From Candidatus Hydrogenedentota bacterium (lineage in GTDB: Bacteria; Hydrogenedentota; Hydrogenedentia; Hydrogenedentales; SLHB01): a stretch of DNA of 64,000 bases. The notes under the pieces are model-generated. The model searched no databases, was not told the DNA's origin, and was given only the letters and a program-made list of their open reading frames with translations. This document shows, in pieces, positions 8,145-24,205 of the stretch. The position numbers and the translations under genes are program-made. Numbering within the stretch: position 1 is the first letter of the stretch; every line of letters begins with the position of its first letter. The stretch lies in the NCBI GenBank assembly GCA_963745075.1, contig CAVUWV010000036.1:96001-160000 (forward strand). Direction: 5' to 3'.

Positions 8145-8900
8145 CTACATCTTCATCTTCTTGAACTGCCAATCCGGGACATGACGGATGATGAGCATGA
8201 TGTACCGCCAAAACCACGGTACGTAGACGGTATTCTTGCGCTTGACGATGGCTGCGCACATGGCCTTGGCGGCCTGTTGCGGCGAGGCAACGAGGAACAG
8301 TCCCGGCAGGCCGAAGGTCATTTTCGTGTCTACGAAGCCGGGCTTGATCGTCGTCACGTGAACGCCCCGGTGATAGAGCCGGTTCCGCAAGCCTTCCAGA
8401 TACGCGCTCAAGCCCGCTTTGGATGCGCCGTAGATGTAATTGCTCTGACGCCCCCGATCGCCGGCCACGGAAGATATTGCCGCGATGAAGCCCGACCCCC
8501 GTTCTTCAAAATACGCCGCAAACTTTTCCAGCAAGGACACGGCGGACGTCAGGTTCACGTCAATCGTTCGCCGCGCGATATCGAATGCGGCCTGGGCATG
8601 CTCCTGCTCGTCCATAAAACCGTAACACAACACGACGCCGCCCAGTCCGCCATTGCCGGCCTCCACACACTGCGCGACGAAACCCTCGTGCGATTCAAAA
8701 TCCTCCGCTTCCAGGAGCAGCGGGATCGCATCCACCCCGCACCGCGTCCGGATATCCGCCGCGATGGTCTCCGCTTCTTCCTCATCGCGCGCGGCGAGCA
8801 CCACCGTGTTTCCCGCCCCGGCAAACTCATCCGCGAGCGCCCGGGCCATGGCCGACGTGGCGCCAAGCACAGCAATGGTTTCCTGCGCAGGCTCGCTCAT
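8145..8900 (-). CDS. SDR oxidoreductase, DprE2-like
   Basis: LGATSAMA, SSVAGDRGRQSNYIYGASK, KPGFVDTKMT; coupled to DprE1-like gene. Confidence 0.85.
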   Translation of the reverse strand: MSEPAQETIAVLGATSAMARALADEFAGAGNTVVLAARDEEEAETIAADIRTRCGVDAIPLLLEAEDFESHEGFVAQCVEAGNGGLGGVVLCYGFMDEQEHAQAAFDIARRTIDVNLTSAVSLLEKFAAYFEERGSGFIAAISSVAGDRGRQSNYIYGASKAGLSAYLEGLRNRLYHRGVHVTTIKPGFVDTKMTFGLPGLFLVASPQQAAKAMCAAIVKRKNTVYVPWFWRYIMLIIRHVPDWQFKKMKM

Positions 8901-10309
8901 GATTCTTCATCCTTCGCCAAGTGCAGCCGCCGCGCCATGCGCGAGGACAAGATCCCCTGCGGATCCAGTCTGTGCCGCTCCTTCCGGAATTCTCCCACGC
9001 GCGGATACATGGCCGCGAATGCCTCCGCGTTCATGCACATATCCTTGGCAAGATACAGACGCCCTCCGTACTCGAGCACGAGCCGGTCGCACTCCGCCAG
9101 GAAGGCCAGCAACCCTTCCCGAATCGGAATGTCCAGCGTCAGCGTGTACCCTTCAAAGGGATACGACAAGAGCCCCGGCCCTTGCGGTCCGAATCGCTTC
9201 AGCACGGCCAGGAACGACGCGCACGAGGCCGCGCTGAGCCGTTCCAGCAAGTTGATTAGACCCTCCTCCCGGCCCGTGGGAAACGTCGCCTGATACTGCG
9301 TGAATCCGCGCTTCCCGTAAATGCGGTTCCAGTTGTGGACCGCGTCGAGCGGGTAGAAGTACGAGTCGTAATCGATGATTTTTCCGTCCGACGACGGATG
9401 GGCCGCGTAAAAAAACGCGTTGAACGTCTTGATGCTCAACGGATTCAACACGATCCCCGGAAAATCGAAAGGAACCCCGGGCTTCTTGCGGGCGCGCGCA
9501 CCAAACGGGTCGTTAGTAACGGCCGGCAGTGCATCCGCCGCCGCGTGTTCGCCGAGCATCAGAACCGAACGCCCAAGGCTCTTGCCTTTCGCCAGACAAT
9601 CCACCCACGCCACCGAATACTGGTAGTCCGCATCCGTCTCGCGGATCGTATCCAGCGTCTCATGGATGTTTTTCAGACGCCGGTAATCGACCTTCATATA
9701 CGCACTCTCGACGCGTTGCAGCCGCACCTTCGCCGTGAGAATCACTCCTGTCAACCCGATACCGCCCACGGTGGCCCAAAACACCCCCGGTTCCACATCG
9801 GCCGAACACACGATTCGTTGTCCAGTCGGCGTCAAGAGCGTCAGCTCGAGGACGTGCGCGCTGAACGTACCGTCGCGATGGTGATTCTTCCCATGCACGT
9901 CGTTGGCGATCGCACCGCCCACCGTGACGTACTTCGTGCCCGGAGTCACCGGTAGAAACCACCCCCGCGGGAGGAATACTTCGAGGATTTCCGCGAGACT
10001 GACGCCCCCTTCGCACTCCAGAACGCCGGCGTCATCGGCAAAGGCCAACATCCGGTTCAACCGGACCGTCGAGAGCACACCGCCCCCGCCGTTTACCGCC
10101 GTATCGCCGTAGCTGCGGCCCAACCCCCGCGCGATGTAGTGCGGTTGTTGGTCCGACTCCAGGATTTCGGCGACCGTCCGGCGCTTTTCCGGCCGGAACA
10201 CGGCGCATTTCTCCGCCGGATATCGGCCCCAACCGGATAGGTTTTGTGTCGACGACGGAATCAATGCATACCCCACATTTCGCGAAACGGATCGAATTAT
10301 AGAACCCAC
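8897..10309 (-). CDS. FAD-binding oxidoreductase, DprE1-like (true start probably nearer 10265)
   Basis: LSGWG, IARGLGRSYGD, PVTPGTKYVTVGGAIANDVHGKNHH, GGRLYLAKD. Confidence 0.9.
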   Translation of the reverse strand: MGSIIRSVSRNVGYALIPSSTQNLSGWGRYPAEKCAVFRPEKRRTVAEILESDQQPHYIARGLGRSYGDTAVNGGGGVLSTVRLNRMLAFADDAGVLECEGGVSLAEILEVFLPRGWFLPVTPGTKYVTVGGAIANDVHGKNHHRDGTFSAHVLELTLLTPTGQRIVCSADVEPGVFWATVGGIGLTGVILTAKVRLQRVESAYMKVDYRRLKNIHETLDTIRETDADYQYSVAWVDCLAKGKSLGRSVLMLGEHAAADALPAVTNDPFGARARKKPGVPFDFPGIVLNPLSIKTFNAFFYAAHPSSDGKIIDYDSYFYPLDAVHNWNRIYGKRGFTQYQATFPTGREEGLINLLERLSAASCASFLAVLKRFGPQGPGLLSYPFEGYTLTLDIPIREGLLAFLAECDRLVLEYGGRLYLAKDMCMNAEAFAAMYPRVGEFRKERHRLDPQGILSSRMARRLHLAKDEES

Positions 10310-12096: not shown

Positions 12097-13605
12097 TCAC
12101 GTCGCCGCCCTTGCGGCCGCCGTGGGCGGACGCAACGGGCGTTGCGCCGCCGGTTCGGCCTGCGCTGCCGCCTGTGTGCGCCTTTCCTGAATGTAGTTTT
12201 CGATGGCGATCGTGCGGCTGATATTCGCCAACGCGATGATGAACCAGTAGGGCTCCATGATGCGCACGATGAGAAACGAGATCGTGCCCAGGGAGTGGAC
12301 GATAAGCGCAAGGGTCGTCACGAACGCGCCCAGCGACACGCCGCGCGCGACCCAGTCCGTCGACCAGAGATACCCCTCCCGCGTCGTTTTGAGCAGGCGC
12401 ATCTGTAGAAAGACGAACGCGATAAATCCGATAATCCCGCTTTCGATCAGGACCCGGGCATACTGACTGTCGAGGACCCGGTCCCACGACACACCACCCC
12501 CGAACCACGGCCAAATCCGGAGATTGTACCGCACCTTCTGCCATACGTAGAGCCGTTCGTGCGTCGACTTATCCACCTGCAGCCCGGTGTCATATTCCCC
12601 GATGGCCACCTCCTGGCCGCTGCCTCGTTGAAACGTGTAGTTGACTCGATCCTTCACGTCATCCGGCATGATAAAGGGCGAGGCGATCAGCACCACCATC
12701 ACCGCCACGATGATGGATGGCTTTCGCGACGCAAGTCCCAATACCACCAACCCCGCGATAAACGCGATATACGACGCACGCGACAAGGTGAACAGGAACG
12801 GGAAGAACGCGACCAGAGCGAGACACAGCATCCCCCGCCGCAGCCCTTTGGTCGGCGCTTGGGTATACAGCGCCGCTGCGATGCACATCACCATCACCAG
12901 GTAGCCGCCCAGTGTGTTCGGCTCGGTCCCGCCCTTCTCAAAGGGCGTGCTGACGCGTTCCATCCCGCTGACGAATCGCGTGTAAAGCCCAAACAACGAC
13001 ACGATCATCGCCACGACAAAGAACACGCCTAGCTGTTGCCGCATCTGTTTCACATTCCGAATCGAATTACCCACAAGCACGAAGATCATGTAGAACTCGG
13101 CCATCTTGAGCATCGTAAACAGCGCTTCCTTCTTGTCGAAAAGCGGAATGGAAGCTCGATAGGCCAGCATGGTCGAAAACAAACAGACTCCGTAATAGGC
13201 GGTGATTCCCGGATTGATCGGACTGGGCAGCCAGAGCGATTTGCGCCCTTCAAAGGCAAGTTTTACCAGCGCACCGACAAAGACTACGATAATCAGACCG
13301 TCGTTGTACCGCAGGTTGAGCATGCGATTGCCCATGCCCACCTTGCCCGCTTCGATTTCGGGCGACAGAAGCATGGCCACGATCAGGAAAAAGACCCCCA
13401 GCTCCACCCGCAGGATCGTCAAACCGAAGATCAGCAGGCTCACACCAACGGCGATCGTGATCGTCAGGTTCTGGAAAACACTGTGAAGGACCAGCAGCCC
13501 GATGGCCGACAACAGCATGAACCCGACAAAGAACGGAAACTCGACGCTACTTTCCGCAATTTCACCGCGGCCGACACCGTACTGGGAACGCTGAAACAGG
13601 GCCAC
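12097..13605 (-). CDS. O-antigen ligase / Wzy polymerase family membrane protein
   Basis: About 12 TM; EPNTLGGYL, FTLSRASYIA, PWFGGG, LDSQYARVLIESGIIG; GTG start at 13605 with GGAG RBS. Confidence 0.85.
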   Translation of the reverse strand: MALFQRSQYGVGRGEIAESSVEFPFFVGFMLLSAIGLLVLHSVFQNLTITIAVGVSLLIFGLTILRVELGVFFLIVAMLLSPEIEAGKVGMGNRMLNLRYNDGLIIVVFVGALVKLAFEGRKSLWLPSPINPGITAYYGVCLFSTMLAYRASIPLFDKKEALFTMLKMAEFYMIFVLVGNSIRNVKQMRQQLGVFFVVAMIVSLFGLYTRFVSGMERVSTPFEKGGTEPNTLGGYLVMVMCIAAALYTQAPTKGLRRGMLCLALVAFFPFLFTLSRASYIAFIAGLVVLGLASRKPSIIVAVMVVLIASPFIMPDDVKDRVNYTFQRGSGQEVAIGEYDTGLQVDKSTHERLYVWQKVRYNLRIWPWFGGGVSWDRVLDSQYARVLIESGIIGFIAFVFLQMRLLKTTREGYLWSTDWVARGVSLGAFVTTLALIVHSLGTISFLIVRIMEPYWFIIALANISRTIAIENYIQERRTQAAAQAEPAAQRPLRPPTAAARAAT

Positions 13606-13627
13606 CGTTAGGGTCTCCGATAGGAAC

Positions 13628-13804
13628 AAATCCGAAATCCAGAATCCAAAATCCAAAACAATTTCAAATGTTCAAATTTCCGAATTGCGAAAACATCCGT
13701 CGCGGTGACGGTTCCGTCACGGTGCAGAACCCAACTGGTCTTGGTCATTCTAGTTTCGGTCATTTGATTTTGTTTCGGATTTCAAGACTCGATATTCGAG
13801 CTTT
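13628..13804. repeat. Heptamer-repeat (AAATCCA/G) inverted element between wzc and wzy-like genes
   Basis: AAATCCG AAATCCA GAATCCA AAATCCA on the left; complementary degenerate arm TTTGTTTCGGATTTC...GATATTCGAGCTTT on the right; AT-rich. Confidence 0.7.
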
Positions 13805-13873
13805 GTGGCCGTTTCCCGTGATGGTGTCGTCACCCGTCATAGGCGAGCGAGACGGACATCAACCCCGGTTCAT

Positions 13874-16117
13874 TCAAAAATAATACCACCGCTTGGGTTT
13901 TTCCGATGCGGAATCGTCGTAGTAGTAATAGTAGTAGTAATAATGGCGCCGCGTGGCCTTCAGATTGTTCAGCACCACCCCGGCGATATTGGCCCGCGCC
14001 GTCTCCAACAGCTTCTTGCCCCGGATAACCGTCTCGCGCCGCGCGTGGTCGGCCGACACCACATGGACGACCGTATCCACTTCCGTCGCCAACAGCACCG
14101 GATCGGTCACGACCAACATAGACGGCGCGTCGCAAATCACCAGATCGAATTCACTGCCCAATTGTTCCAGCAGCTTCCGCATGCGATCGGACCCGATCAG
14201 TTCCGACGGGTTGGGCGGGACCCGCCCGCTGGAAATAATCCACAGGTTCTCGACCCGGGTCGGCCGAATGACCGTGTGCACGTCGTATCCTTCACGGAGC
14301 ACGTCCGCCAGCCCCGGCCCGCGTTCCATCCGCAAGACGTGGTGCACGTGAGGGCGCCGCAGGTCCGTATCGATGACGAGCACGCGCAACCCGCTGTCCG
14401 CAAACGTGACGGCCATGTTCACCGCCGTTGTCGTCTTGCCTTCCGCGGGCACGGAACTGGTCACCATGATCGTCTTGGGCTTCTCGTGGATCGTCGCCAA
14501 TTGGAACGTCGTACGCAAGGTCCGGTACGCTTCCGAAATCGGCGATTTCGGATCGTGCTGCGTTACAATGCAGGCATCCACCTGCCCTTCGTCGCTCATC
14601 ACCACGTAATCCCCGCCGCGGCGGACCTTCTGCTTTCCGAACCGCATCTGAGGGATCGTGCCGATCACGTCCAGCCCGATGTACTCCGTCACGTCTTCAA
14701 TCGACCGGATGGACGTGTCGTTCATTTCCGCCATCACGGCCAACCCGAACCCGATCACCAGCCCCACAAACGCACCGATGATGAAGTTCATCCACGGCTT
14801 GACCTGCTGCTCGACCGGCACTGCGCTGGCCGTCGCCACGCTTTGCCGCTCCACGTAGCCCTGCTCCCGGTTCAATCCCGTTGCGATCTCGAGCCGCTTG
14901 TCGAGCAGGGTGTTGAATTGACGCCGCAACTGATCGGCCTCGCGAACTAGGTTCTGGTATTCCTTGTCTTTGTCCGACAACGACGGAATGATCTGCTCCA
15001 GTTCCTTGATCAGGCGACGGTTGGTGGAACTCTGAATGTCGAGCGACGTGAGCTGCAGTTGCAGCGAGAGGTATTGATTCCGTAATTGCTTCCGATCCTG
15101 CAAAAGGTTCATGCCGGACGTCACCCCTTCGTCCACCTCCTGCATGGCCTGCAAAATCGCCTGCTCCTTCTCTTCGATACGGGCCTGGAGATCGCGCAAC
15201 GGACCCTGGTGCGGCTGCCATATCACCGAAAGCTGAATTCGCTGCCGTTGCAGTTCGTTCAGTTCCCCAAGCAGTCCCGTCACCACGTCGTCGGAAATCT
15301 GCCCAATGGACAGCGGAAGCTGTTCGTTCTTCGCGGCGAGCTGATCCTCGATGCCGCCCATCTTAGCCCGGATTTCTTCCTGCTGCGTTTCGGCGTTTGT
15401 CACTTCGCGGGCGAGCGACTGGATCTCGTTGACTACCTCGTCCTTCGTCCGGAACCCCATGCTCTTCCGGAACTCCCACAGCTTGCCGTCCGCCTCGTCG
15501 AGATCCTGGCGAACGTCGTCCAACTTTTGCAGCACGAAGCTGTGCGTCTCTTCCTCTTCTTCCAGCAGAAATTCCCGGTTCCGATCGATAAACACCCGCG
15601 CGCCAAATTCCGCGATCCGCTTGGCCTCCGCCTGGCTCGAAGCCGTCGTCGTGATCTGTATCATGCCCGCTTCCTGATTGGGCTCGATGCGCACGCGGCT
15701 CTCGATCTCCGCGACCTTCGCCAGAAACTCCTCTTCCGTCGAAACTCCGCCGCTCGGCAGACCGTCCGCGATCCCCTGCTGGATGAGTGCGCGGGTGAGA
15801 TCCTCGGCCACACCGTGACGGCTGACCCGCTCCACCAACGCCTGCGGCGTGTTCAGGAAAAGCGGTTTGGCCCCCACGTCTTTGAGCAGGCTTTTCTCCC
15901 AGGGAGACTGTTCCACCCGCAGTTGCGCCGATCCGACGAACTGGGGCTTCACATCGAAACTGAACAGACCGAAGATTCCGTACCCCACCGATGCCACCAA
16001 GGTGAACACGGCGATGAGACGCCACCGGCGCAGCCCCACGTTCAGGATATAGCGGAACTGGTTCTCGCGGGGCGCCTGGCCGGCCGCCTGCTCGAGGCCT
16101 GCAGTTTCCATTGCCAT
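13874..16117 (-). CDS. wzc: Polysaccharide co-polymerase / tyrosine autokinase (Wzc, PCP-2a)
   Basis: Two TM flanking coiled coil; SEAYRTLRT, Walker A SSVPAEGKTT, IDTDLRRP, VICDAP; C-terminal run of 8 Tyr. Confidence 0.95.
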   Translation of the reverse strand: MAMETAGLEQAAGQAPRENQFRYILNVGLRRWRLIAVFTLVASVGYGIFGLFSFDVKPQFVGSAQLRVEQSPWEKSLLKDVGAKPLFLNTPQALVERVSRHGVAEDLTRALIQQGIADGLPSGGVSTEEEFLAKVAEIESRVRIEPNQEAGMIQITTTASSQAEAKRIAEFGARVFIDRNREFLLEEEEETHSFVLQKLDDVRQDLDEADGKLWEFRKSMGFRTKDEVVNEIQSLAREVTNAETQQEEIRAKMGGIEDQLAAKNEQLPLSIGQISDDVVTGLLGELNELQRQRIQLSVIWQPHQGPLRDLQARIEEKEQAILQAMQEVDEGVTSGMNLLQDRKQLRNQYLSLQLQLTSLDIQSSTNRRLIKELEQIIPSLSDKDKEYQNLVREADQLRRQFNTLLDKRLEIATGLNREQGYVERQSVATASAVPVEQQVKPWMNFIIGAFVGLVIGFGLAVMAEMNDTSIRSIEDVTEYIGLDVIGTIPQMRFGKQKVRRGGDYVVMSDEGQVDACIVTQHDPKSPISEAYRTLRTTFQLATIHEKPKTIMVTSSVPAEGKTTTAVNMAVTFADSGLRVLVIDTDLRRPHVHHVLRMERGPGLADVLREGYDVHTVIRPTRVENLWIISSGRVPPNPSELIGSDRMRKLLEQLGSEFDLVICDAPSMLVVTDPVLLATEVDTVVHVVSADHARRETVIRGKKLLETARANIAGVVLNNLKATRRHYYYYYYYYDDSASEKPKRWYYF

Positions 16118-16122
16118 CCGAG

Positions 16123-17640
16123 TCAGTTTCTCCGGGATTCCGTCACGTCTTGCGGTTGTCGTATCGCGGGACCCACAATCTTCGAATTCGCCGTCACGTC
16201 CAGCATCCGATCCCACGTCACCGTCTCCGGGGACTCATGGACCGTCGGCGTCAGAAACATCATCAGCTCCGTCTGGGCATGCGACTTCTCCGTGTGCTTG
16301 AACAGATTGCCCAACAGCGGAACCTTACCCAACCCGGGCACCCGCTGCTCCACGTCCTGCAGATCGTTGCGGTAAATACCGCCCACGACCAGGGTCTGTC
16401 CGTCGCGCACGTTGGATTCGCCCTGGTATTTCCGTACGGATCGAATCGGAATTCCATTGCTGGACCCGGTGGGGGAAGAAACCTCCGGCTCGAACTCCAG
16501 TTTCACATAGGTCCCTTTGTCATCCTTGAGCACATGCGGCGTCACGGCCATCTTGATTCCCAAATCGAGAAAACGCACGGAGAAATTCTCCCGGCCCGAC
16601 GCCTCGATACCGAATTCCGTGTACGGAAATTCATCCACCATCGAAATCTCGGCCTTCTTATGGTTCACCGTGAGAATGTTCGGATTGGCCAGCAATTCAG
16701 CTTGGTTGTCCGCGACCAAGGCATCCAACAGCATCCCGAGATCGACTTGCTGGTTCATGAGCCCGAAAAACATCTGTCCCACTTTCGGGATTTGCGCGGG
16801 CACATTGAGCAGACGGTCAAAGGTCGTTCCGTCCACAAAGCTTCGCCCCCTGTCGTTGTTTTGGTTTCCGTTTCCATTTATCCCGCCAAAATTTTCGTTG
16901 TTCAGAGGGGATGCCGACTGTCCCTTCAAGGCGTTGATATTTGTGTCCTGGCTTGGCAATGGGTAATAGCCCCCGTTCACATCCGTTCCTTGGACGAACC
17001 AGCGAACGCCCAACTCTTTCATCGCGCCGGCCTTCACCTCTGCGATCTTCGCTTCGATGCGCACCTGCGTGAGTTGGCTCTGCATCTTGTCCAGTCGCGC
17101 CGTCACATTGAGAATGTTCTGAATCGCGTCCGGCGTATCCGTTATGATTAGACTGTTCGTATCCGGATCGTACGCAATACTACCGCCCGCGGACGTCATC
17201 CCCTGTAACGCCACGCTGAGCGTTTCCGCGTCCGCATTATTCAGCGGGAGAATCTCCGTCTTCATGTCCGGCATCCGGTAACCGCCGCCAATCTCCGGCG
17301 CCGTTCGCGACACGGTCACGCGCGGATTCTTCAACACCGACGAAAGGGCCGTGCGTATCCGCGCCGAGGCTTCGTTCTCCGACAAACCGGCGATGGTAAC
17401 GTTTCCGATGAACGGAAGCTGAATGTTTCCGTCGCTGTCGATTTGCGTCGTCGTCGACACTTCCGGCCGCCGGTAAACGTCGACGAAGACCAGTTCGCCG
17501 GGCTCCAAGACGCCCTTGGGCGCTGGAACGTCCTGTGTCGCCGCCGGCAATGCAGCCAGCACCGCCACCAGCCACACGATCCATTGTGGACCGGACCGGT
17601 CACGCAGTTGCGGTTCGCGTTCTCTCAGATGACGTATCAC
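16123..17640 (-). CDS. Fusion: Wza-type polysaccharide export domain + secretin N domain + secretin core
   Basis: LEPGELVFVDVY...IDSDGNIQLPFIGNVTIAGLS...NPRVTV; YDPDTNSLIITDT; QVRIEAKIAEV, ANPNILT, DGQTLVVGG, VPGLGKVPLLGNLFK, TELMMFLTPTV; GTGA overlap with upstream gene. Confidence 0.9.
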   Translation of the reverse strand: MIRHLREREPQLRDRSGPQWIVWLVAVLAALPAATQDVPAPKGVLEPGELVFVDVYRRPEVSTTTQIDSDGNIQLPFIGNVTIAGLSENEASARIRTALSSVLKNPRVTVSRTAPEIGGGYRMPDMKTEILPLNNADAETLSVALQGMTSAGGSIAYDPDTNSLIITDTPDAIQNILNVTARLDKMQSQLTQVRIEAKIAEVKAGAMKELGVRWFVQGTDVNGGYYPLPSQDTNINALKGQSASPLNNENFGGINGNGNQNNDRGRSFVDGTTFDRLLNVPAQIPKVGQMFFGLMNQQVDLGMLLDALVADNQAELLANPNILTVNHKKAEISMVDEFPYTEFGIEASGRENFSVRFLDLGIKMAVTPHVLKDDKGTYVKLEFEPEVSSPTGSSNGIPIRSVRKYQGESNVRDGQTLVVGGIYRNDLQDVEQRVPGLGKVPLLGNLFKHTEKSHAQTELMMFLTPTVHESPETVTWDRMLDVTANSKIVGPAIRQPQDVTESRRN

Positions 17641-19877
17641 GAGGTGCCCTCTTCGTTCCCATCCGCCTCGGCGGAAGGGCCGGTTGATTGCGGGTTCGGG
17701 CTGCGAATGATCAGTTCCTGGCCGACAAAAATGACACTCTGGGAAAGGTCGTTCCACTCCATAAGGTCCGCCACACTTACGCCGTGCGCCGCCGCGATCC
17801 CGGACAAGGTGTCGCCCGCGACTACTTGGTACACGGCTTCCGTCGCCGGCACTTCAACCTGCGCCTCGATTTCGGATGCCTCCGCCGGCGCGGCGGAATC
17901 CGGCTCCGTCGAGTCCGGTTGCTCCATCGATCCCGCGTCGCTTTCGGGTTCTGACACCGGTTCGGAAGGCGTATCCGCCTTGTCGGTTCCTTCTTCCAGC
18001 GCGGGCGCCGTCGCTTCCCACGGGACATCGTCTTCCGGTGCAGTGGCAGATGAGGAATCGGCCGCGCTGTCGTCCGCCCCGTTCGTCTGTTCTTCCACCG
18101 CGGCCGCCTCGTCCTTCTGGCTGCGTTCGCGAAGGACGTCCATCTTCGCGCGCAACTCTTTCTTAGTCGCGGGATCGATCCCCGGGCTCTGTACCGCATG
18201 GGTCCATTCCACCACCGCGAGCTGTTCGCACTCGCCACGTTTCGCCGGTGCTTGTGCGCGCTCGGCCAAGGCCCGGTACAACGTGCCGAGTTCCGTATAG
18301 TCCACGTCCGGGGTATGGTTGTCCTGCATCCCAACCGCCTGAAGATAGTACGATCGCGCCGAGTCGTCCTGGCCCAACTTCGCGTACGAGCGCGCGAGGA
18401 TTCGCACCGCCGGCACCGCGGCCATCGGATCCAGCAGGCGTAGCTCCGGATCGCGCAGTAGCTCGATCGCTTGCTGATACTCGCCAAGCTCGTAGTACAG
18501 CCGCCCCATCAAGGTCCGCGCTCGCGGCGCCTTTGCGTGCGTCGGGTACGCATCCAGAAATTGCTTGAACATTTCGATCGATCGCGTATACACCTGCTGG
18601 CGTTCATCCACCGACGATGGTTGCAGCAGTTGCAAGGTGAATGCCGCTGCAAACTGGGCATCCGCCCCCAACTCGCTTCCCGGGTTCCGCTTTGCAAACG
18701 CTGCGTAAGTAGCTGACGCCTGCCGGTACTCCCCTTTCGCGGCCATCGTGACCGCCTCGTTATAAAGCGCCGTGGGGTTCGATACGTTTTCGTCGTACCA
18801 CGTATACGCCTCGTAACCACCTACGGCCACGGCCGCCAGTACAATAAGTCCCGCCGCCACGCGCAACATGCGGCGGCGTGCATCCTTTCGATGTCCCGAA
18901 CGGCGGCGGCGCGTCTTGGGTCCCGTATGGCGGAGATACATCGCCTCTTCCGCCTCTTCAATCGTCGGAATCCGTACACGTTCGCCAAGCTCCTCCGGTG
19001 CGACCGGCGGCTCCACATTCAAACCGCCTGACGGCCGCGCGGGGGAGGGCTCTTCCACCGCTTCAAACGGAACGGAAGACACCGGTTCAGCCGCGGACGG
19101 ATCGAGCGTTTTCTCGACTTCCCGCAGACTGGGCTCCGGCGCTTCTTCTTCCACCGGTGAAAACTCAAACGGCGCGGCCTCTTCCAACGGCGGCGCGGCA
19201 TCAGCCGATATTTCTTCGGGGTGTTCCTCCACCGGCGCCGGCTCTTCGGGCGGCTCAACCGGGGGTTCCGGCTCCGCGGCTTCCGGGGGCGATACGGCTT
19301 CCTCCAACAAAGGCGGAGGAGGTTCCAACGGCACATCGGCCACCGGCGCCGCTTCTTCGGCGGATTCGGCGCGGGGCGTCAATTCAAACGGGGCGGATTC
19401 CTGCTCTGCCGGTGACGGCGTCCCCGCTTCGGGTCCGCGAGCTTCTTCATCTTTCGTCAATTCCGCGATCATGTCGCGGAGGTGCTCCATCGCCGCACGA
19501 TTATCCGATTCCGACGGGTATTCCTGTTCCGGTGGCGGTTCATTGTCCACCGTGGGCGCCATGGAGGAATCTACGTCAGCGACACCCTCTTCATAAAAGC
19601 TCAGCGGTTGTTCGGGATCCAGATCCCGCGTCGGCTCGGGTTCGGGTTCGGCAGGGGGTGGAGTTTCCGGTTCGGCAGGCGGCGGTGCGGTCAGCCCGCT
19701 CATTTGAATGAATTCGAGGTCGCCTCCGCGTTCCTCAGGCGAGACTCCGCTGTCAAGACGCGGATCCGCTTGGAGACCCTCCTGAATTTGTTCGTCAAAT
19801 TCATCGAACGGGGCTTGGGAGTCTTCCTCCGGTTCGCGTCCTTCCTCGTCCTCGTGATTGTCAGGATGCTTCGTCAT
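17637..19877 (-). CDS. Membrane-anchored TPR + LysM protein with long acidic/Pro-rich N-terminus
   Basis: About 320 aa E/P-rich region, Arg-rich stretch, one TM, BamD/YbgF-like TPRs, C-terminal LysM YQVVAGDTLSGIAAAHGVSVADLMEWN. Confidence 0.85.
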   Translation of the reverse strand: MTKHPDNHEDEEGREPEEDSQAPFDEFDEQIQEGLQADPRLDSGVSPEERGGDLEFIQMSGLTAPPPAEPETPPPAEPEPEPTRDLDPEQPLSFYEEGVADVDSSMAPTVDNEPPPEQEYPSESDNRAAMEHLRDMIAELTKDEEARGPEAGTPSPAEQESAPFELTPRAESAEEAAPVADVPLEPPPPLLEEAVSPPEAAEPEPPVEPPEEPAPVEEHPEEISADAAPPLEEAAPFEFSPVEEEAPEPSLREVEKTLDPSAAEPVSSVPFEAVEEPSPARPSGGLNVEPPVAPEELGERVRIPTIEEAEEAMYLRHTGPKTRRRRSGHRKDARRRMLRVAAGLIVLAAVAVGGYEAYTWYDENVSNPTALYNEAVTMAAKGEYRQASATYAAFAKRNPGSELGADAQFAAAFTLQLLQPSSVDERQQVYTRSIEMFKQFLDAYPTHAKAPRARTLMGRLYYELGEYQQAIELLRDPELRLLDPMAAVPAVRILARSYAKLGQDDSARSYYLQAVGMQDNHTPDVDYTELGTLYRALAERAQAPAKRGECEQLAVVEWTHAVQSPGIDPATKKELRAKMDVLRERSQKDEAAAVEEQTNGADDSAADSSSATAPEDDVPWEATAPALEEGTDKADTPSEPVSEPESDAGSMEQPDSTEPDSAAPAEASEIEAQVEVPATEAVYQVVAGDTLSGIAAAHGVSVADLMEWNDLSQSVIFVGQELIIRSPNPQSTGPSAEADGNEEGTS

Positions 19878-20976
19878 GGAGTTCTGTCAACAAGACCCTG
19901 TCGGGATTCGTTCGCGCAGCCTTTAACAGAAGCCGGTTCGCGCGCGACGTCGACACCGTACCCGCCCGGCGCTGGCCGGCAACGGAACCGGCCGGCCGCA
20001 GCGAGTCTTCCAGTTCAATCGGCATTTCATGGGCCGGACGCGGCGCCTTCATAAACCGGTCGGCGATTCGCGCACGCTTCTCGTCGTCCGGCAGCGTCGT
20101 CTTTTGAATCGTGTGTAATACGATAGCCTGTCCAATATGCCGCGTACGCAGTTGGCACGCCAGCAACAACGCGTTCCGGCACAAGGTCACCGTCACCCGC
20201 GGGCTGCCCTCCGCGTACGAATGAATCACTTTCACCGCGTCGTCGTCAAACTCCGGGCCCCGTTCCGAAGCCCCGGCCTGGCGCAGCCGGAAATCGATGA
20301 GGCTCCGCGTGTCCCGTTCGCTCAGCGGACCCAGCGTATACGTCATGTTTACCCGTTGCTCGAAATTGGGCGCCGCCCGCAACACGTGCATCCACTCCAA
20401 CTGAGCGAACAGGATCAGATTGATCAGTTTGTGCTGCGGCGTCTCCAGGTTCTGCACAAGACGCAACAATTCCAACTGGCCACGCTTATTCAGATTCTGC
20501 GCATCGTCGATAATAAGCGTGTTGATTCGTTCGCGTTTCGTCAACAGGTAGTGGTACAACGACTCCATGTACCCCACAAAAGACCGCGTTTCCGGCCGCA
20601 AGCCGAACTGCGTGACGATGCTCTCAAGAAGCGAAAAACTGGTCCAGGACGGAATGGGCGACGCGATCACCGCCGTGTTGTACCGGTCCGAACGGGTCCG
20701 CATCCCCGTGAGCAGCTTGCGCAACAACGTGGTCTTGCCCGTGCCGTAGCTGCCGAGCACCACCGCGATGCCGTGCCGCTCGTCGACCGTGTTCCAGAGA
20801 TGAAAAAGACACTCCCGGTGGGCGTTGGTGGCGTAATAGTACGCGGGATCCGCCGTCGCCGCGAAGGGTTGTTCGGTCAGGCCAAAGTGGTCCAGCAACG
20901 ACAATCCCGTGCGTCCCATTCCCGGCTCGTCCGGACCCCAAACGTCTTCGTTCGGCGTGGCCGCGTGTCCATTCAT
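19861..20976 (-). CDS. ExeA/GspA-family AAA ATPase (no TM or PG-binding domain)
   Basis: HFGLTEQPF..TADP, Walker A GSYGTGKTT, LIIDDAQNL, LELLRLVQNLET, FRLRQAG. Confidence 0.9.
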   Translation of the reverse strand: MNGHAATPNEDVWGPDEPGMGRTGLSLLDHFGLTEQPFAATADPAYYYATNAHRECLFHLWNTVDERHGIAVVLGSYGTGKTTLLRKLLTGMRTRSDRYNTAVIASPIPSWTSFSLLESIVTQFGLRPETRSFVGYMESLYHYLLTKRERINTLIIDDAQNLNKRGQLELLRLVQNLETPQHKLINLILFAQLEWMHVLRAAPNFEQRVNMTYTLGPLSERDTRSLIDFRLRQAGASERGPEFDDDAVKVIHSYAEGSPRVTVTLCRNALLLACQLRTRHIGQAIVLHTIQKTTLPDDEKRARIADRFMKAPRPAHEMPIELEDSLRPAGSVAGQRRAGTVSTSRANRLLLKAARTNPDRVLLTELHDEAS

Positions 20977-21233
20977 TGGTATGCCCCCGTGTCAAGTTTT
21001 GCCGGTTTACGAAACACCGCAAACCCGTCTCTGCTCCGCCGCGAGCAGCGCTCTGGGCTTGCCGCAGATGGAACCAGACGACACTGGCGAATCCGATCTC
21101 GCTCTTCTCGCGGGTGGCATTCTCCTGTACGCCCACACGCGCCGGACACGCATCCCATTACACCCGGTATATTCTACGGGTACCGCCGGCCATGCAGGTC
21201 CCATCAAGTGCGAATCCCGCTTAAGATACTGAT

Positions 21234-21262
21234 ATTCTAGCCAAGCGCTTAGAGGGTGTCAA
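21234..21262 (-). promoter_or_regulatory. Sigma70 promoter of the ExeA/secretin/Wzc operon
   Basis: TTGACA-N17-TAGAAT on minus strand. Confidence 0.7.
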
Positions 21263-21454: not shown

Positions 21455-23221
21455 ATGAAGCGCGAGTTTCTTGTACTCCTCTCTGGACCGCTCCAAGGAA
21501 GCGAGCGGGACATCGTCGGGTCGTTGACGATCGGGCGCAGTCCGGAAAATGGCTTGCAACTGAACGACTTACAGGTCTCGCGCAAACACGCCGTCATCCA
21601 GCAGACGCCCGCCGGCACCATTGTCCGCGACCTCGGCAGCGGCAACGGCACATATATTGGGGATCGCCGCGTGCTTGAGTACCGCCTCTCCGACGGCGAT
21701 GTTATCCGCATCGGTCCCATGGATATGAAGTTCGAAATCCGCGTCGGCGATGCCATGACCACCCCGCGCCCCGTCCAGAGTCCGCCCGAGGGTTCCGACC
21801 CGCGCCAGAGCGTTCGGTTCCATGCCGAAGAGTCGGCCAGCAAGATCGAGGCAAACGCCGCAGATAACGTCTACCGCACCTTCTTCCAGGCCCCGCAGGA
21901 CGCCGTCAGCGCCGAGCAGTTGCGGGACGCGCAGAACCGCCTCGCCGCGGTCTACGAGGCCAACCAAATCATCTCGAGCGAGCGGGATTTACGGAAACTC
22001 TTCGAGCGCGTGATGGACCAGATCTTTGGTCTCGTCCCCGCCCACAACGGCGTTATCCTCCTCAAAGACGAGCGGACCGGCGAACTCGTAACCGAATACG
22101 TCAAGCGGGGCAACAAACAGTCGGAAGTCGCCATGAGTTCGAGTATTGTCTCACGCGCCTTCGAGAACGGCGAAGCCGTAATCACCTACAACGCCGCGAG
22201 CGATGCCCGGTTCGAGACGGGCGCCAGCATCATTGCCCAGAACATTACATCCGCCATGTGTACCCCCCTCAAGCACCAGAACGAGATCCTCGGCATCATC
22301 TACGTCGATACCCGCGGCACACAGAACGCCTTTGCCCAGCGCGATCTCGAATTGCTCGTCGCCGTCTCCGGACCCGCGGCCACCTCGATCCGCAACGCCC
22401 AGTATCTCGCCAAAATCCAAAAGGCCTACCAGGACACGCTCATCGCCCTGGCCAACGCCATCGAACTCCGCGACCACTACACGGTTGGCCACACCTGGCG
22501 CGTGACCAACTTCGCCCTCGAAATCGCCCGGACCCTCGAGTGGTCCGAAGAAAAGCTCCGCGAATGTGAAATGGGCGGCGTGCTGCACGACGTCGGCAAA
22601 ATCTCCATCGACGACGCCGTCCTGCGCAAGCCCGGCGGACTTACCGAGGACGAGTTCGCCCAGATGCGCGTCCATCCCGAACGCGGTGCCCGCATGATGC
22701 AGGACATCGAATTCCTTGTTCCCCTGATTCCTTATGCCCTCTACCACCACGAGCGGTATGACGGCAAAGGATATCCCTTTGGATTGAAAGGCGAAGAGAT
22801 CCCCTTGGAAGGACGTCTCCTCGCCGTGGCCGATACGCTGGACGCCATGACCAGCAACCGGCCGTATCGGAAAGGCCTCGATCCCGAGTTCGCCATCTCG
22901 GAGATTGAAAAGGGCAAGGGCTCCCAATTCGATCCCGTCATTGTCGACGCGTTGATCAAATGCTACCGCGACGGCAAAATCGACCGCATCCTTCAGGACT
23001 ACTACAAGAAAGACGAGAAGAGCGTCGCGTGCCCCTTCTGCAGCACCTACATCCGGTTACCGGAAAATGCCTCGGTGGACTTCGAGTTTCAGTGCGGCGT
23101 TTGCCACCGCCAAATCCGTTTGCAGCAGCAAAATGAGGCCTACTTCGGCGAGCTCGTCACTCGAAACGACTCGTCCCCGTCAAGCTCCTCCTCCTCGGAC
23201 GATTCCGAGCCCGCGGAGTAA
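21455..23221 (+). CDS. FHA-GAF-HD-GYP phosphodiesterase with C-terminal zinc ribbon
   Basis: TIGRS...VSRKHA...GSGNGT; GAF SAMCTPL; HDVGK, HHERYDGKGYP, RPYR; CPFC...CGVC. Confidence 0.92.
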   Translation: MKREFLVLLSGPLQGSERDIVGSLTIGRSPENGLQLNDLQVSRKHAVIQQTPAGTIVRDLGSGNGTYIGDRRVLEYRLSDGDVIRIGPMDMKFEIRVGDAMTTPRPVQSPPEGSDPRQSVRFHAEESASKIEANAADNVYRTFFQAPQDAVSAEQLRDAQNRLAAVYEANQIISSERDLRKLFERVMDQIFGLVPAHNGVILLKDERTGELVTEYVKRGNKQSEVAMSSSIVSRAFENGEAVITYNAASDARFETGASIIAQNITSAMCTPLKHQNEILGIIYVDTRGTQNAFAQRDLELLVAVSGPAATSIRNAQYLAKIQKAYQDTLIALANAIELRDHYTVGHTWRVTNFALEIARTLEWSEEKLRECEMGGVLHDVGKISIDDAVLRKPGGLTEDEFAQMRVHPERGARMMQDIEFLVPLIPYALYHHERYDGKGYPFGLKGEEIPLEGRLLAVADTLDAMTSNRPYRKGLDPEFAISEIEKGKGSQFDPVIVDALIKCYRDGKIDRILQDYYKKDEKSVACPFCSTYIRLPENASVDFEFQCGVCHRQIRLQQQNEAYFGELVTRNDSSPSSSSSSDDSEPAE

Positions 23222-23449: not shown

Positions 23450-24205
23450 ATGGTGTGGAAAACTTGGATGACAGCAGCGACGGTAGCGGGGATTGCAGCG
23501 GTAGCCCTGGTAGTGGCGCCGGCCTTGGCGCAGACAGACGATAAACCCGCAACGGCCAAGCAGGAAAACACGGCCGCCCCCCAGACGGACAAAGCCGACA
23601 CAAACACCTGGCAACCCGGTCAGGGCCGGGGACGCGGCCAGGCCAATGCCGCCGGCCGGGGACAAGGTCCACGATTTGAAGATGCGGACAAGGACGGCAT
23701 CTGCGACAATCGTCCCGTCGCCAAGGGGCGTGGCCAAGGTCGCGGCCGTCAGATGGCCGGCCCGGGCCAGGGACAGGGGCGCATGCACGCTAACGCGCAG
23801 GGTCCCGGACAGGGCCGCGGGAAAGCCATCGGCCAGGGACAAGGCCAGGGCCGTGGACGCCAGATGGCCCAAGGCGGTCAGGGTCGCGGCCGGATGCACG
23901 GTAATGCCAATGGTCCCGGCCAAGGCCGAGGCTATGGCATGGGCCAGGGTTCCGGACATGGCCAGGGCCGCGGCTATGGCATGGGCCAAGGTCCCGGACA
24001 AGGCCAGGGCCGCGGCTATGGCATGGGCCAAGGTCCCGGACAAGGCCAGGGCCGCGGCTATGGCATGGGCCAAGGTCCCGGACAAGGCCAGGGGCGCAAC
24101 AAGGCGATGATGGACTGTGGCCAGGGCCGTGGGTTCGGTAACGGCCAAGGCCGTGGCCAAGGGTATGGGTGCGGTAACGGCCAGTGCCGCTGCATAAACC
24201 GCTAG
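23450..24205 (+). CDS. Secreted Gly/Gln/Arg-rich repeat protein
   Basis: Signal peptide ending ALA; FEDADKDGICD; GQGQGRGYGMGQGP repeats; Cys-rich tail; AGGA RBS. Confidence 0.8.
   Translation: MVWKTWMTAATVAGIAAVALVVAPALAQTDDKPATAKQENTAAPQTDKADTNTWQPGQGRGRGQANAAGRGQGPRFEDADKDGICDNRPVAKGRGQGRGRQMAGPGQGQGRMHANAQGPGQGRGKAIGQGQGQGRGRQMAQGGQGRGRMHGNANGPGQGRGYGMGQGSGHGQGRGYGMGQGPGQGQGRGYGMGQGPGQGQGRGYGMGQGPGQGQGRNKAMMDCGQGRGFGNGQGRGQGYGCGNGQCRCINR
23912..24097 (+). repeat. Coding tandem repeat, 42-nt unit
   Basis: GGTCCCGGACAAGGCCAGGGCCGCGGCTATGGCATGGGCCAA units starting 23948 (variant), 23990, 24032, 24074 (partial). Confidence 0.9.

What the first reader, a model, noticed from the sequence alone, without database searches (positions are those of the whole stretch)
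12097..21262. Candidate secretin-based polysaccharide export system (ExeA - TPR/LysM - Poly_export::secretin - Wzc - Wzy-like)
Seen: five co-oriented genes behind a TTGACA-N17-TAGAAT promoter; the first four overlap or lie within a few nt. No separate Wza, beta-barrel, pilin, pseudopilin or GspE/F gene is present. Established: Wzc normally partners an OPX (Wza), which either makes its own helical pore or recruits a separate beta-barrel, whereas secretins serve T2SS, T3SS, T4P and phage extrusion. Inference: a secretin has been recruited as the outer-membrane channel for a Wzy-type polymer or glycoconjugate, with its own assembly factors. I do not know this arrangement as a described export class.
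Basis: partly seen in the sequence, partly recalled or inferred. Interest (0 to 1): 0.9.

Follow-up and report, generated by a model that had tools for sequence, protein, structure and literature searches.

The report
Secretin pore docked on polysaccharide exporter
An uncultured bacterial group carries a conserved five-gene unit in which a secretin, the big outer-membrane pore normally used for proteins and pili, is fused to the small docking domain that couples sugar-polymer export machines to their exit, suggesting an undescribed way to export polysaccharides that has not yet been tested in the lab.

Summary
The minus-strand operon encodes an ExeA-like ATPase, a membrane-anchored TPR protein, an OPX-D1::N-domain::secretin fusion, an intact Wzc and a PF04932 enzyme.

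The fusion occurs in 67 of 135 genomes of the phylum (Hydrogenedentota by named relatives). The PF04932 gene is in 66 of those 67 and in 0 of the other 68. Gene order is kept in the 42 loci read, and the promoter is conserved in 34 of 35. The enzyme has Asp where ligases have His, as polymerases do. This genome's two ordinary OPX genes each have their own co-polymerase, and its T2SS/T4P loci have their own secretins. A distant fusion clade sits, in the one locus read, among glycosyltransferases, a PCP plus tyrosine kinase, and Wzm/Wzt.

Best reading (0.72): a secretin-based outer-membrane exit for Wzc-guided polysaccharide.

Not shown: the substrate (no glycosyltransferase or flippase in the operon), D1-Wzc binding, and an assembly role for ExeA/TPR. 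LysM is in only 5 of 41 orthologues. Six literature searches found no such fusion, but secretin-dependent slime export is published. The scan noted this system earlier on another genome.

The parts
21234..21262 (-). Sigma70-type promoter TTGACA-N17-TAGAAT, 257 nt upstream of the first ATG
   Evidence: 11 of 12 matches. A site with at least 10 of 12 matches lies upstream of the ATPase in 34 of 35 related loci vs 1.4 expected. Activity not measured.
19861..20976 (-). ExeA/MshM-like soluble AAA ATPase, 371 aa, with no TM segment and no peptidoglycan-binding domain
   Evidence: AAA_22, TIGR03015 below cut-off; no TM. Walker A GxYGTGKT in 35 of 35 loci, DDAQ in 34 of 35.
17637..19877 (-). Bitopic protein, 746 aa: conserved N-terminal motif, long acidic region, one TM (about 336-356), YbgF/BamD-like TPR, C-terminal LysM (lineage-specific)
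   Evidence: TM plus TPR layout in the orthologues, LysM in 5 of 41. Cytoplasmic N-terminus inferred from the basic residues before the TM.
16123..17640 (-). OPX-secretin fusion, 505 aa: Sec-type signal peptide, OPX D1/PES domain, one secretin N domain, secretin core, short C-tail; no SLBB, no N0
   Evidence: Pfam; model pLDDT 80.5. D1 matches WzaB 9n9a at Z 12.8, rmsd 1.4 A over 72 residues, and Wza 2j58 at Z 11.0, 1.5 A over 73; the core matches GspD/PilQ. A lipobox-like string occurs in 5 of 120 homologues, all read as part of the hydrophobic stretch.
13874..16117 (-). Wzc-type polysaccharide co-polymerase with fused tyrosine kinase, 747 aa, two TMs around a periplasmic region of about 384 aa
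   Evidence: TIGR01007 187 bits. Walker A and a run of tyrosines in 36 of 36 full-length orthologues read; Y702-Y709 invariant in alignment A3.
12097..13605 (-). PF04932 / GT-C1-type membrane glycosyltransferase, 502 aa, most likely a Wzy polymerase
   Evidence: PF04932. Fold closest to WaaL 7tpj (Z 25.7, rmsd 4.0 A, 359 aligned), then SEDS (Z 13-15). Invariant R217 and R276; invariant Asp379 in the column where four paralogues have the His of the HN motif.
21455..23221 (+). Divergent FHA-GAF-HD gene (HD-GYP-like phosphodiesterase): associated neighbour and possible regulator, not shown to be part of the system
   Evidence: Pfam/NCBIfam; in the same divergent position in 24 of 42 loci. Its distribution across the phylum was not tested.

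Best explanation
The operon is a stand-alone polymerise-and-export module for a surface polysaccharide whose outer-membrane exit is a secretin. Lipid-linked repeat units made and flipped by unlinked genes (inferred) are polymerised by the PF04932 enzyme under control of the Wzc kinase cycle (inferred from family knowledge; catalytic motifs shown intact). The Wzc periplasmic arms dock on the D1 domains of the fusion, as Wzc docks on Wza D1 in E. coli (published for Wza; inferred here). The polymer then passes the single N ring and the secretin barrel instead of a Wza helical pore or a separate beta-barrel porin (inferred). The ATPase and TM-TPR protein probably help place or assemble the secretin, as GspAB or MshMN are thought to; this is the weakest step. 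Shown: architecture, folds, synteny, joint gain and loss, one-to-one OPX/PCP pairing, and a glycan-cluster context in a distant clade.
For: (1) The fusion keeps exactly the OPX domain that binds Wzc (PMC12881504, PMC13469938, PMC12819527 passages) and puts it where secretins normally have N0. D1 is as conserved as the N domain (0.67 vs 0.67; secretin core 0.73). (2) Wzc follows the fusion in 42 of 42 loci and the PF04932 gene follows in 37 of 42 (4 contig ends, 1 true absence). (3) Across 135 genomes the PF04932 orthologue is in 66 of 67 fusion-positive and 0 of 68 fusion-negative genomes. The Wzc periplasmic part is in 65 of 67 (2 contig ends) and 2 of 68. Five families hold both states. (4) In the two genomes that keep this wzc without the fusion it is decayed: tyrosine run lost in G130, kinase lost in G077. 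(5) Ordinary OPX genes have their own PCP here and in 4 of 5 relatives. (6) Distant clade: in L110 the same fusion is followed by a Wzz/GNVR PCP, a tyrosine kinase and Wzm/Wzt, and is flanked by GT2/GT4 genes. This window's Wzc is closer to that kinase (44%) than to its own genome's other Wzc (29%). (7) Asp at the ligase His position is the polymerase pattern in clan GT-C1 (PMC10920833 passages). (8) Secretins are required for slime secretion in cyanobacteria and Myxococcus (PMC12475490).
Against: No glycosyltransferase, flippase, initiating transferase or Wzb phosphatase lies in the operon or recurs beside it. Two candidate donor genes did not track the operon: the C9 sugar transferase is in 13 of 135 genomes (all fusion-positive) and the C20 flippase in 58 of 135, including many fusion-negative genomes. 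Wza-Wzc is 8:8, whereas solved full secretins have 12-15 chains, so a symmetry mismatch must be accommodated. The closest solved fold of the PF04932 enzyme is a ligase. The glycan-cluster context of the distant clade rests on one locus, which has an ABC transporter and no PF04932 or ExeA gene in the 21.6 kb read. ExeA/TPR persist without the fusion in G007, G130 and G077, and TPR in G008. A PilT-family gene lies tail-to-tail after the operon in 11 of 42 loci. Genomes are related, so the counts overstate independence.
Confidence: 0.72

Rival explanations
1. Glycoconjugate or protein exit: Wzc and D1 form a trans-envelope scaffold, the PF04932 enzyme acts as a ligase or oligosaccharyltransferase, and the secretin releases a glycosylated protein or lipid-anchored glycan rather than a free polymer.
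For: WaaL is the closest fold. The best NCBIfam hits are weak ligase-like models (TIGR03097 in 16 of 36 members, TIGR00947 in 24 of 36, first member far below cut-off). There are no biosynthesis genes in the operon. Secretin lumens are sized for folded proteins (recalled). The operon has a conserved housekeeping-type promoter.
Against: Invariant Asp instead of the ligase His; intact Wzc kinase and tyrosine run; no conserved cargo gene nearby; distant clade lies in a polymer cluster with Wzm/Wzt.
Confidence: 0.14
2. The secretin serves a pilus or type II system encoded elsewhere (or DNA uptake), and D1 is only an anchor that ties it to the Wzc ring.
For: ATPase-TPR-secretin recalls mshM-mshN-mshL of the MSHA pilus (PMC4624765 table). 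PilT neighbour in 11 of 42 loci. PilQ-like sequences lie near the fusion clade in the tree, without resolved support.
Against: Each T2SS/PilM locus of this genome has its own secretin and a full GspA with a peptidoglycan-binding domain lies elsewhere. The PilT orthologue is in 125 of 135 genomes regardless of the operon, and is unlinked here. The fusion lacks N0 and is gained and lost with the PF04932 gene.
Confidence: 0.07
3. Wzc and the polymerase export through an ordinary OPX encoded elsewhere; the fusion is co-regulated but has a separate or regulatory role.
For: Most fusion-positive genomes also have other PF02563 genes. In G048 the second OPX and second PCP lie on different contigs.
Against: Adjacent own PCP for each ordinary OPX in this genome and in 4 of 5 relatives; wzc decays once the fusion is lost; 5-nt gap between fusion and wzc.
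Confidence: 0.05

Closest known systems
Wza-Wzc translocon of group 1 capsule / colanic acid (class 1 OPX + PCP-2a; PDB 2j58, 9r60, 9r64)
   Same: D1/PES domain with the same fold (rmsd 1.5 A); full Wzc with a periplasmic region of similar length (about 384 aa vs residues 52-423 in E. coli); OPX gene directly before wzc.
   Different: No SLBB domains, no helical pore, no conserved lipobox; a secretin takes the place of D2-D4; no wzb or biosynthesis genes in the operon.
Composite class 3 OPX / beta-barrel translocon (M. xanthus WzaB/EpsY with an 18-stranded porin)
   Same: A pore-less OPX part relies on another outer-membrane channel; the best D1 match is WzaB 9n9a (Z 12.8).
   Different: The channel is a multimeric secretin fused in the same chain, not a separate monomeric barrel; D2 (SLBB) is absent.
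Slime nozzles of cyanobacteria and Myxococcus (PilQ/GspD; PMC12475490)
   Same: A secretin is proposed as the gate for an exopolymer.
   Different: Those are ordinary PilQ/GspD proteins. In the passages read no OPX domain, PCP or polymerase is coupled to them. Here the secretin is dedicated and carries an OPX docking domain.
GspAB (ExeAB) and MshM-MshN-MshL secretin accessory modules
   Same: ExeA-like ATPase plus a bitopic or TPR partner next to a secretin.
   Different: The ATPase has no TM or peptidoglycan-binding part, the partner is TM-TPR rather than a GspB HR domain, and no pilus or T2SS genes are linked. Deleting mshM or mshN did not reduce pili.
Group 4 capsule export cluster gfcABCDE-etp-etk
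   Same: An export cluster for a Wzx/Wzy-dependent capsule (passage). That it borrows repeat units from unlinked O-antigen genes is recalled, and is the model for the missing biosynthesis genes here.
   Different: Uses a Wza-like GfcE and a GfcD beta-barrel, not a secretin.

Membership tests
OPX proteins (any class) | Poly_export / PES (D1) domain | tested here: met
   PF02563 66.7 bits over cut-off 28; fold match to Wza and WzaB D1.
OPX classes 1-3 (Saidi et al.) | One or more SLBB domains after Poly_export | tested here: not met
   No SLBB Pfam hit. D1 is followed by a short linker and a secretin N domain in all 41 rows of A2; model residues 89-153 match secretin N domains.
OPX class 1 (Wza) | Lipoprotein with C-terminal Wza_C helical pore | tested here: not met
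   The C-terminal part is PF00263; no conserved lipobox.
OPX class 3 / composite translocon | No outer-membrane-spanning domain; separate beta-barrel gene nearby | tested here: not met
   The chain carries its own secretin core; no recurrent extra gene lies in or beside the operon in 42 loci other than the HD and PilT neighbours.
Secretin family | Secretin C domain preceded by an N3-type domain, with a signal peptide | tested here: met
   PF00263 138.5 bits, PF03958 51 bits; Foldseek E 6e-18 to GspD.
Secretin family | Forms a gated 12-16-mer ring in the outer membrane | not testable with these tools
   Only a monomer was modelled.
T2SS / T4P / T3SS | N0 domain and linked platform, ATPase and (pseudo)pilin genes | tested here: not met
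   No N0 or STN hit; GspD 205 and PilQ 193 bits, below cut-offs of 351 and 284; no linked platform genes; the PilT neighbour is independent.
PCP-2a (Wzc) | Two TMs around a large periplasmic domain, fused BY-kinase with Walker A and C-terminal tyrosine cluster | tested here: met
Wzx/Wzy-dependent pathway | Wzy polymerase | tested here: inconclusive
   GT-C1 fold and polymerase-type Asp, but the nearest solved fold is WaaL and activity was not tested.
Wzx/Wzy-dependent pathway | Cognate Wzx, initiating transferase and glycosyltransferases | tested here: inconclusive
   None linked. The genome has 6 PF01943 and 2 PF02397 matches elsewhere; the two tested did not track the operon.
O-antigen ligase (WaaL, GT121) | Catalytic His of the periplasmic HN motif | tested here: not met
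   Asp in 36 of 36 at that column (placed by aligning six PF04932 regions of this genome, not by structure superposition).
GspA/ExeA of T2SS | ATPase fused to TM and peptidoglycan-binding domain, paired with GspB | tested here: not met
   No TM or PG-binding domain; a full GspA lies elsewhere on C10. PMC9239104 notes that some GspAs lack the periplasmic part.

The most novel reading that the evidence does not exclude
A further class of outer-membrane polysaccharide translocon, beside the Wza pore, the composite OPX/beta-barrel and the synthase porins: a dedicated secretin whose N0-N2 rings are replaced by an OPX D1 ring. It plugs straight onto a PCP and can serve both Wzy-type (Hydrogenedentota) and ABC-type (L110 clade) synthesis, bridging an 8-fold Wzc to a 12-15-fold pore.
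Probability: 0.65. Interest if true: 0.9.

Novelty: new variant of a known kind. Interest (0 to 1): 0.8.

Why it matters
If true, it adds a new exit route to bacterial polysaccharide export and gives secretins a defined, genetically coupled non-protein cargo. The published claim that secretins secrete slime lacks a known synthesis machine or coupling. This fusion hard-wires a secretin to Wzc, so the question 'can a secretin conduct a polysaccharide, and what opens its gate?' becomes testable with three genes. It also poses a concrete structural puzzle (octameric Wzc on a 12-15-mer pore) and points to a conserved envelope polymer in about half the genomes of a little-studied phylum. I class it as a variant because the inner-membrane half is a known PCP system; the pore itself fits no described OPX class or secretin system.

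Tried and rejected
Complex prediction of the Wzc periplasmic domain with fusion D1 gave no answer (score 0.17, mark 0.32); it is not used for or against binding.

No RNA run was listed for the operon; this is no evidence on expression.

The scan of species genomes with the single fusion protein returned only 2 loci, and its cap left no way to place the distant clade in named genomes. A metagenome scan with P0271 found nothing. L110's record is not held for wider reading, and cluster look-ups gave no organism names, so the lineage of the distant clade is unknown.

The representatives search was swamped by repeat-rich giant secretins: 16 of the 150 listed hits spanned D1 into the N domain in one stretch, and 1254 passed 1e-10, so more distant fusions may be hidden.

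None of the 10 best plasmid rows shown (of 1097 records) reached the D1 part. The profile of the PF04932 family found no solved structure by sequence.

Rejected: PilT as a component; LysM as core; the C9 transferase or C20 flippase as obligate donors; origin of the secretin from this genome's T2SS secretins.

Pairwise distance correlations (fusion-Wzc 0.62, fusion-polymerase 0.54, Wzc-polymerase 0.72, ExeA-fusion 0.23; 29 loci) reflect shared descent and are not taken as co-evolution. A Fisher test on the presence table is not quoted because kin are not independent.
Full report
OBSERVATION. The five genes are present, co-oriented and tightly joined as described. Domain content is confirmed by Pfam and NCBIfam. 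The central gene is a true fusion: signal peptide, Poly_export (OPX D1), one Secretin_N domain and a secretin core, with no SLBB and no N0. An AlphaFold2 model on 119 sequences (pLDDT 80.5) gives D1 at 1.4-1.5 A to WzaB and Wza D1 and the rest on GspD/PilQ. The promoter is not beyond chance in the window alone but is conserved in 34 of 35 related loci against 1.4 expected. Named relatives place the organism in Hydrogenedentota. The genome is 6.8 Mb and 89.7% complete.

CONSERVATION. The fusion protein matched 68 of 135 genomes of the phylum at E<=1e-30. One of these, G002, is an ordinary PilM-linked secretin, leaving 67. I read 42 loci: 40 of the 66 other positive genomes, chosen for family spread and contig length, plus L018 and L019. 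Wzc follows the fusion in 42 of 42. The TPR gene precedes it in 41 of 42 and the ATPase in 35 of 42, the rest being cut by contig or region ends. The PF04932 gene follows in 37 of 42 (four contig ends; truly absent in G076). Genome-wide, the PF04932 orthologue is in 66 of the 67 and 0 of the 68 others. The Wzc periplasmic part is in 65 of 67 and 2 of 68, and the TPR domain in 66 of 67 and 6 of 68. Families f1, f2, f7, f10 and f11 hold both states, so the set was lost or gained as a block several times. Kin are not independent, and many genomes are incomplete.

PARTIAL LOCI. G130 has ATPase-TPR-wzc with no fusion or polymerase, and its Wzc has lost the tyrosine run. G077 keeps a kinase-less wzc remnant. 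G007 keeps ATPase and TPR, directly followed by the PilT neighbour. G008 shows the TPR end and PilT on a short contig. G041 and G071 end at contig edges. This reads as staged decay in which Wzc degenerates once the fusion is gone. It also shows that ATPase and TPR can outlast the secretin, which weakens the claim that they are its dedicated assembly factors.

The genome has two ordinary OPX genes. Each is next to its own co-polymerase and near a Wzx. In five near-complete relatives that have exactly two PF02563 matches, the second OPX has an adjacent PCP in four; in G048 the two lie on different contigs. The six other secretin matches belong to two T2SS-like loci, two PilM-linked loci and a tandem pair, and a full GspA with a peptidoglycan-binding domain lies elsewhere. 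A PilT-family ATPase lies tail-to-tail after the operon in 11 of 42 loci, but its orthologue is in 125 of 135 genomes and unlinked here.

A DISTANT CLADE. A profile of D1 plus N domain against 1.84 billion representatives gave two divergent full fusions, P0199 and P0251. Follow-up found eight clusters at 90% identity with all three Pfam domains. One locus could be read (L110, 43% GC, lineage unknown). Its order is GT4, two radical SAM genes, GT4, kinase and regulator, a TM-TPR protein, a small ORF, the fusion, a Wzz/GNVR co-polymerase, a tyrosine kinase with a tyrosine run, radical SAM, Wzm, Wzt, an unassigned ORF and GT2 genes. The fusion therefore also occurs inside a plain glycan biosynthesis cluster, again directly before a PCP. 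It has no PF04932 or ExeA gene in the 21.6 kb read. Its TM-TPR protein is only weakly similar to ours (22%, E 1e-4). In a secretin-domain tree (18 Hydrogenedentota-type fusions, 8 distant fusions, 39 near hits, 7 secretins of G000/G002; unrooted, hand-picked subset) the two fusion clades are sisters at 94/88, which is neither shown nor rejected, and lie apart from this genome's T2SS secretins. The window's D1 and kinase are closer to the distant clade than to their own genome's paralogues. A single origin is the simplest reading.

THE INNER-MEMBRANE HALF. Wzc keeps Walker A and the tyrosine run in 36 of 36 full-length orthologues. The PF04932 protein folds like WaaL (Z 25.7) and SEDS polymerases (Z 13-15). 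Meitil et al. (PMC10920833, passages) report that in this clan ligases have a catalytic His where polymerases have Asp or Glu. Our family has an invariant Asp in that column, which favours a polymerase. What it polymerises is open: no glycosyltransferase, flippase, initiating transferase or phosphatase recurs near the operon. The genome has glycan clusters without an OPX or PCP hit on C9 and C20. The C9 transferase is confined to fusion-positive genomes but is in only 13; the C20 flippase is not tied to the operon.

MECHANISM. Published structures show Wzc arms binding Wza D1 in an 8:8 channel, and loss of co-localisation without D1 (PMC12881504, PMC13469938, passages); WzcB binds the Poly_export tip of WzaB (PMC12819527, passages). 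The fusion keeps that one domain and swaps the rest for a secretin. I infer that Wzc docks on a D1 ring and feeds polymer through the N ring and barrel. The low-confidence, variable linker between D1 and the N domain could absorb the mismatch between an octamer and a 12-15-mer. The ATPase and TM-TPR pair resembles GspAB and MshMN (PMC9239104 and PMC4624765, passages). However, an ExeA-like ATPase also sits in this genome's ordinary C22 EPS cluster, and deleting mshM or mshN did not reduce pili, so their role is the least certain. LysM is a late addition (5 of 41).

PRIOR KNOWLEDGE. Six full-text searches found no paper on an OPX-secretin fusion, judged from the listings and abstract starts: secretin + polysaccharide export + Wzc + fusion (13 papers, 12 listed); OPX + secretin + co-polymerase; Hydrogenedent + secretin; PF02563 + PF00263; secretin + Poly_export + domain architecture; OPX / translocon / secretin domain (25 listed). 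In the OPX classification papers I saw passages only. Saidi et al. define all three classes with SLBB and use 'secretin' once, for a porin. Schwabe et al., PMC12819527 and PMC11845990 have no occurrence of 'secretin' in the main text. Their supplementary tables were not seen and may list these proteins, and most subscription papers are not searchable. The nearest functional precedent is PMC12475490 (passages and first part of the Discussion): ordinary PilQ/GspD are needed for slime secretion. Databases already hold the domain combination under automatic names. Note e1-7267550 describes a different D1 chimera and was not checked.

VERDICT. A real, strongly conserved system that fails membership in every described OPX class and in T2SS/T4P, yet works most plausibly like Wza-Wzc with a secretin as the pore (0.72). 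Substrate, binding, ring symmetry and the role of the two upstream genes are untested. Interest 0.8.

Noticed in passing
G000 C21 (L057:8552-11980); G002 (L104:938-4041): A TPR gene followed by two short secretins in tandem with no N-domain Pfam hit (402 and 392 aa here; 338 and 361 aa in the distant G002, where they precede the pilM operon). Possibly a heteromeric secretin of unknown role.
   Followed up: partly
window 21455-23221 (+): The divergent FHA-GAF-HD gene with an HD-GYP-like motif stays beside the operon in 24 of 42 loci and also in G130 and G071. A c-di-GMP link to the operon is possible.
   Followed up: partly
L019 (whole locus): The record is titled as a Bathyarchaeia archaeon but carries fusion-wzc-PF04932 at 50-60% identity to this window; most likely a mis-binned bacterial contig.
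   Followed up: no
P0121 and many hits: Giant secretins of 2000-5500 aa with many N-domain repeats; P0121 has 23 Secretin_N matches, N0 and a secretin core.
   Followed up: no
P0151, P0202, P0208, P0178, P0262: Proteins with 4-6 tandem Poly_export domains, one fused to HEAT repeats and one to a sigma-70 domain.
   Followed up: no
G000 C3 (L053:7858-10378): The T2SS secretin is split into an N-domain ORF and a C-domain ORF, a frameshift or an assembly error.
   Followed up: no
G094 (L098:6007-8274), G084 (L099:1314-3314), G061 (L101:6371-10618): Second, diverged copies of this wzc (38-40%) with no fusion in the stretch read; in G061 it is followed by a weak match to the polymerase.
   Followed up: partly
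L110:7526-9418: A RecG-C/HATPase_c_4 domain fused to a TM and TPR repeats lies two genes upstream of the distant fusion, echoing the ATPase plus TM-TPR pair of this operon.
   Followed up: partly
G000 C9 (L114) and C20 (L116): Glycan gene clusters with no OPX or PCP hit (sugar transferase, heparinase II/III-like, PF04932-TPR, GT4; Wzx, GT4, PF04932). Their homologues lie 12 kb apart on one contig in G104.
   Followed up: partly
window 23450-24205 (+): A secreted-looking protein with long Gly/Gln-rich repeats and Cys-rich ends, no Pfam hit, upstream of a two-component pair.
   Followed up: no
window 8145-10309 (-): An FAD oxidase and short-chain dehydrogenase pair, like DprE1/DprE2 pentose-donor enzymes (recalled). 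It did not recur in the related loci.
   Followed up: partly
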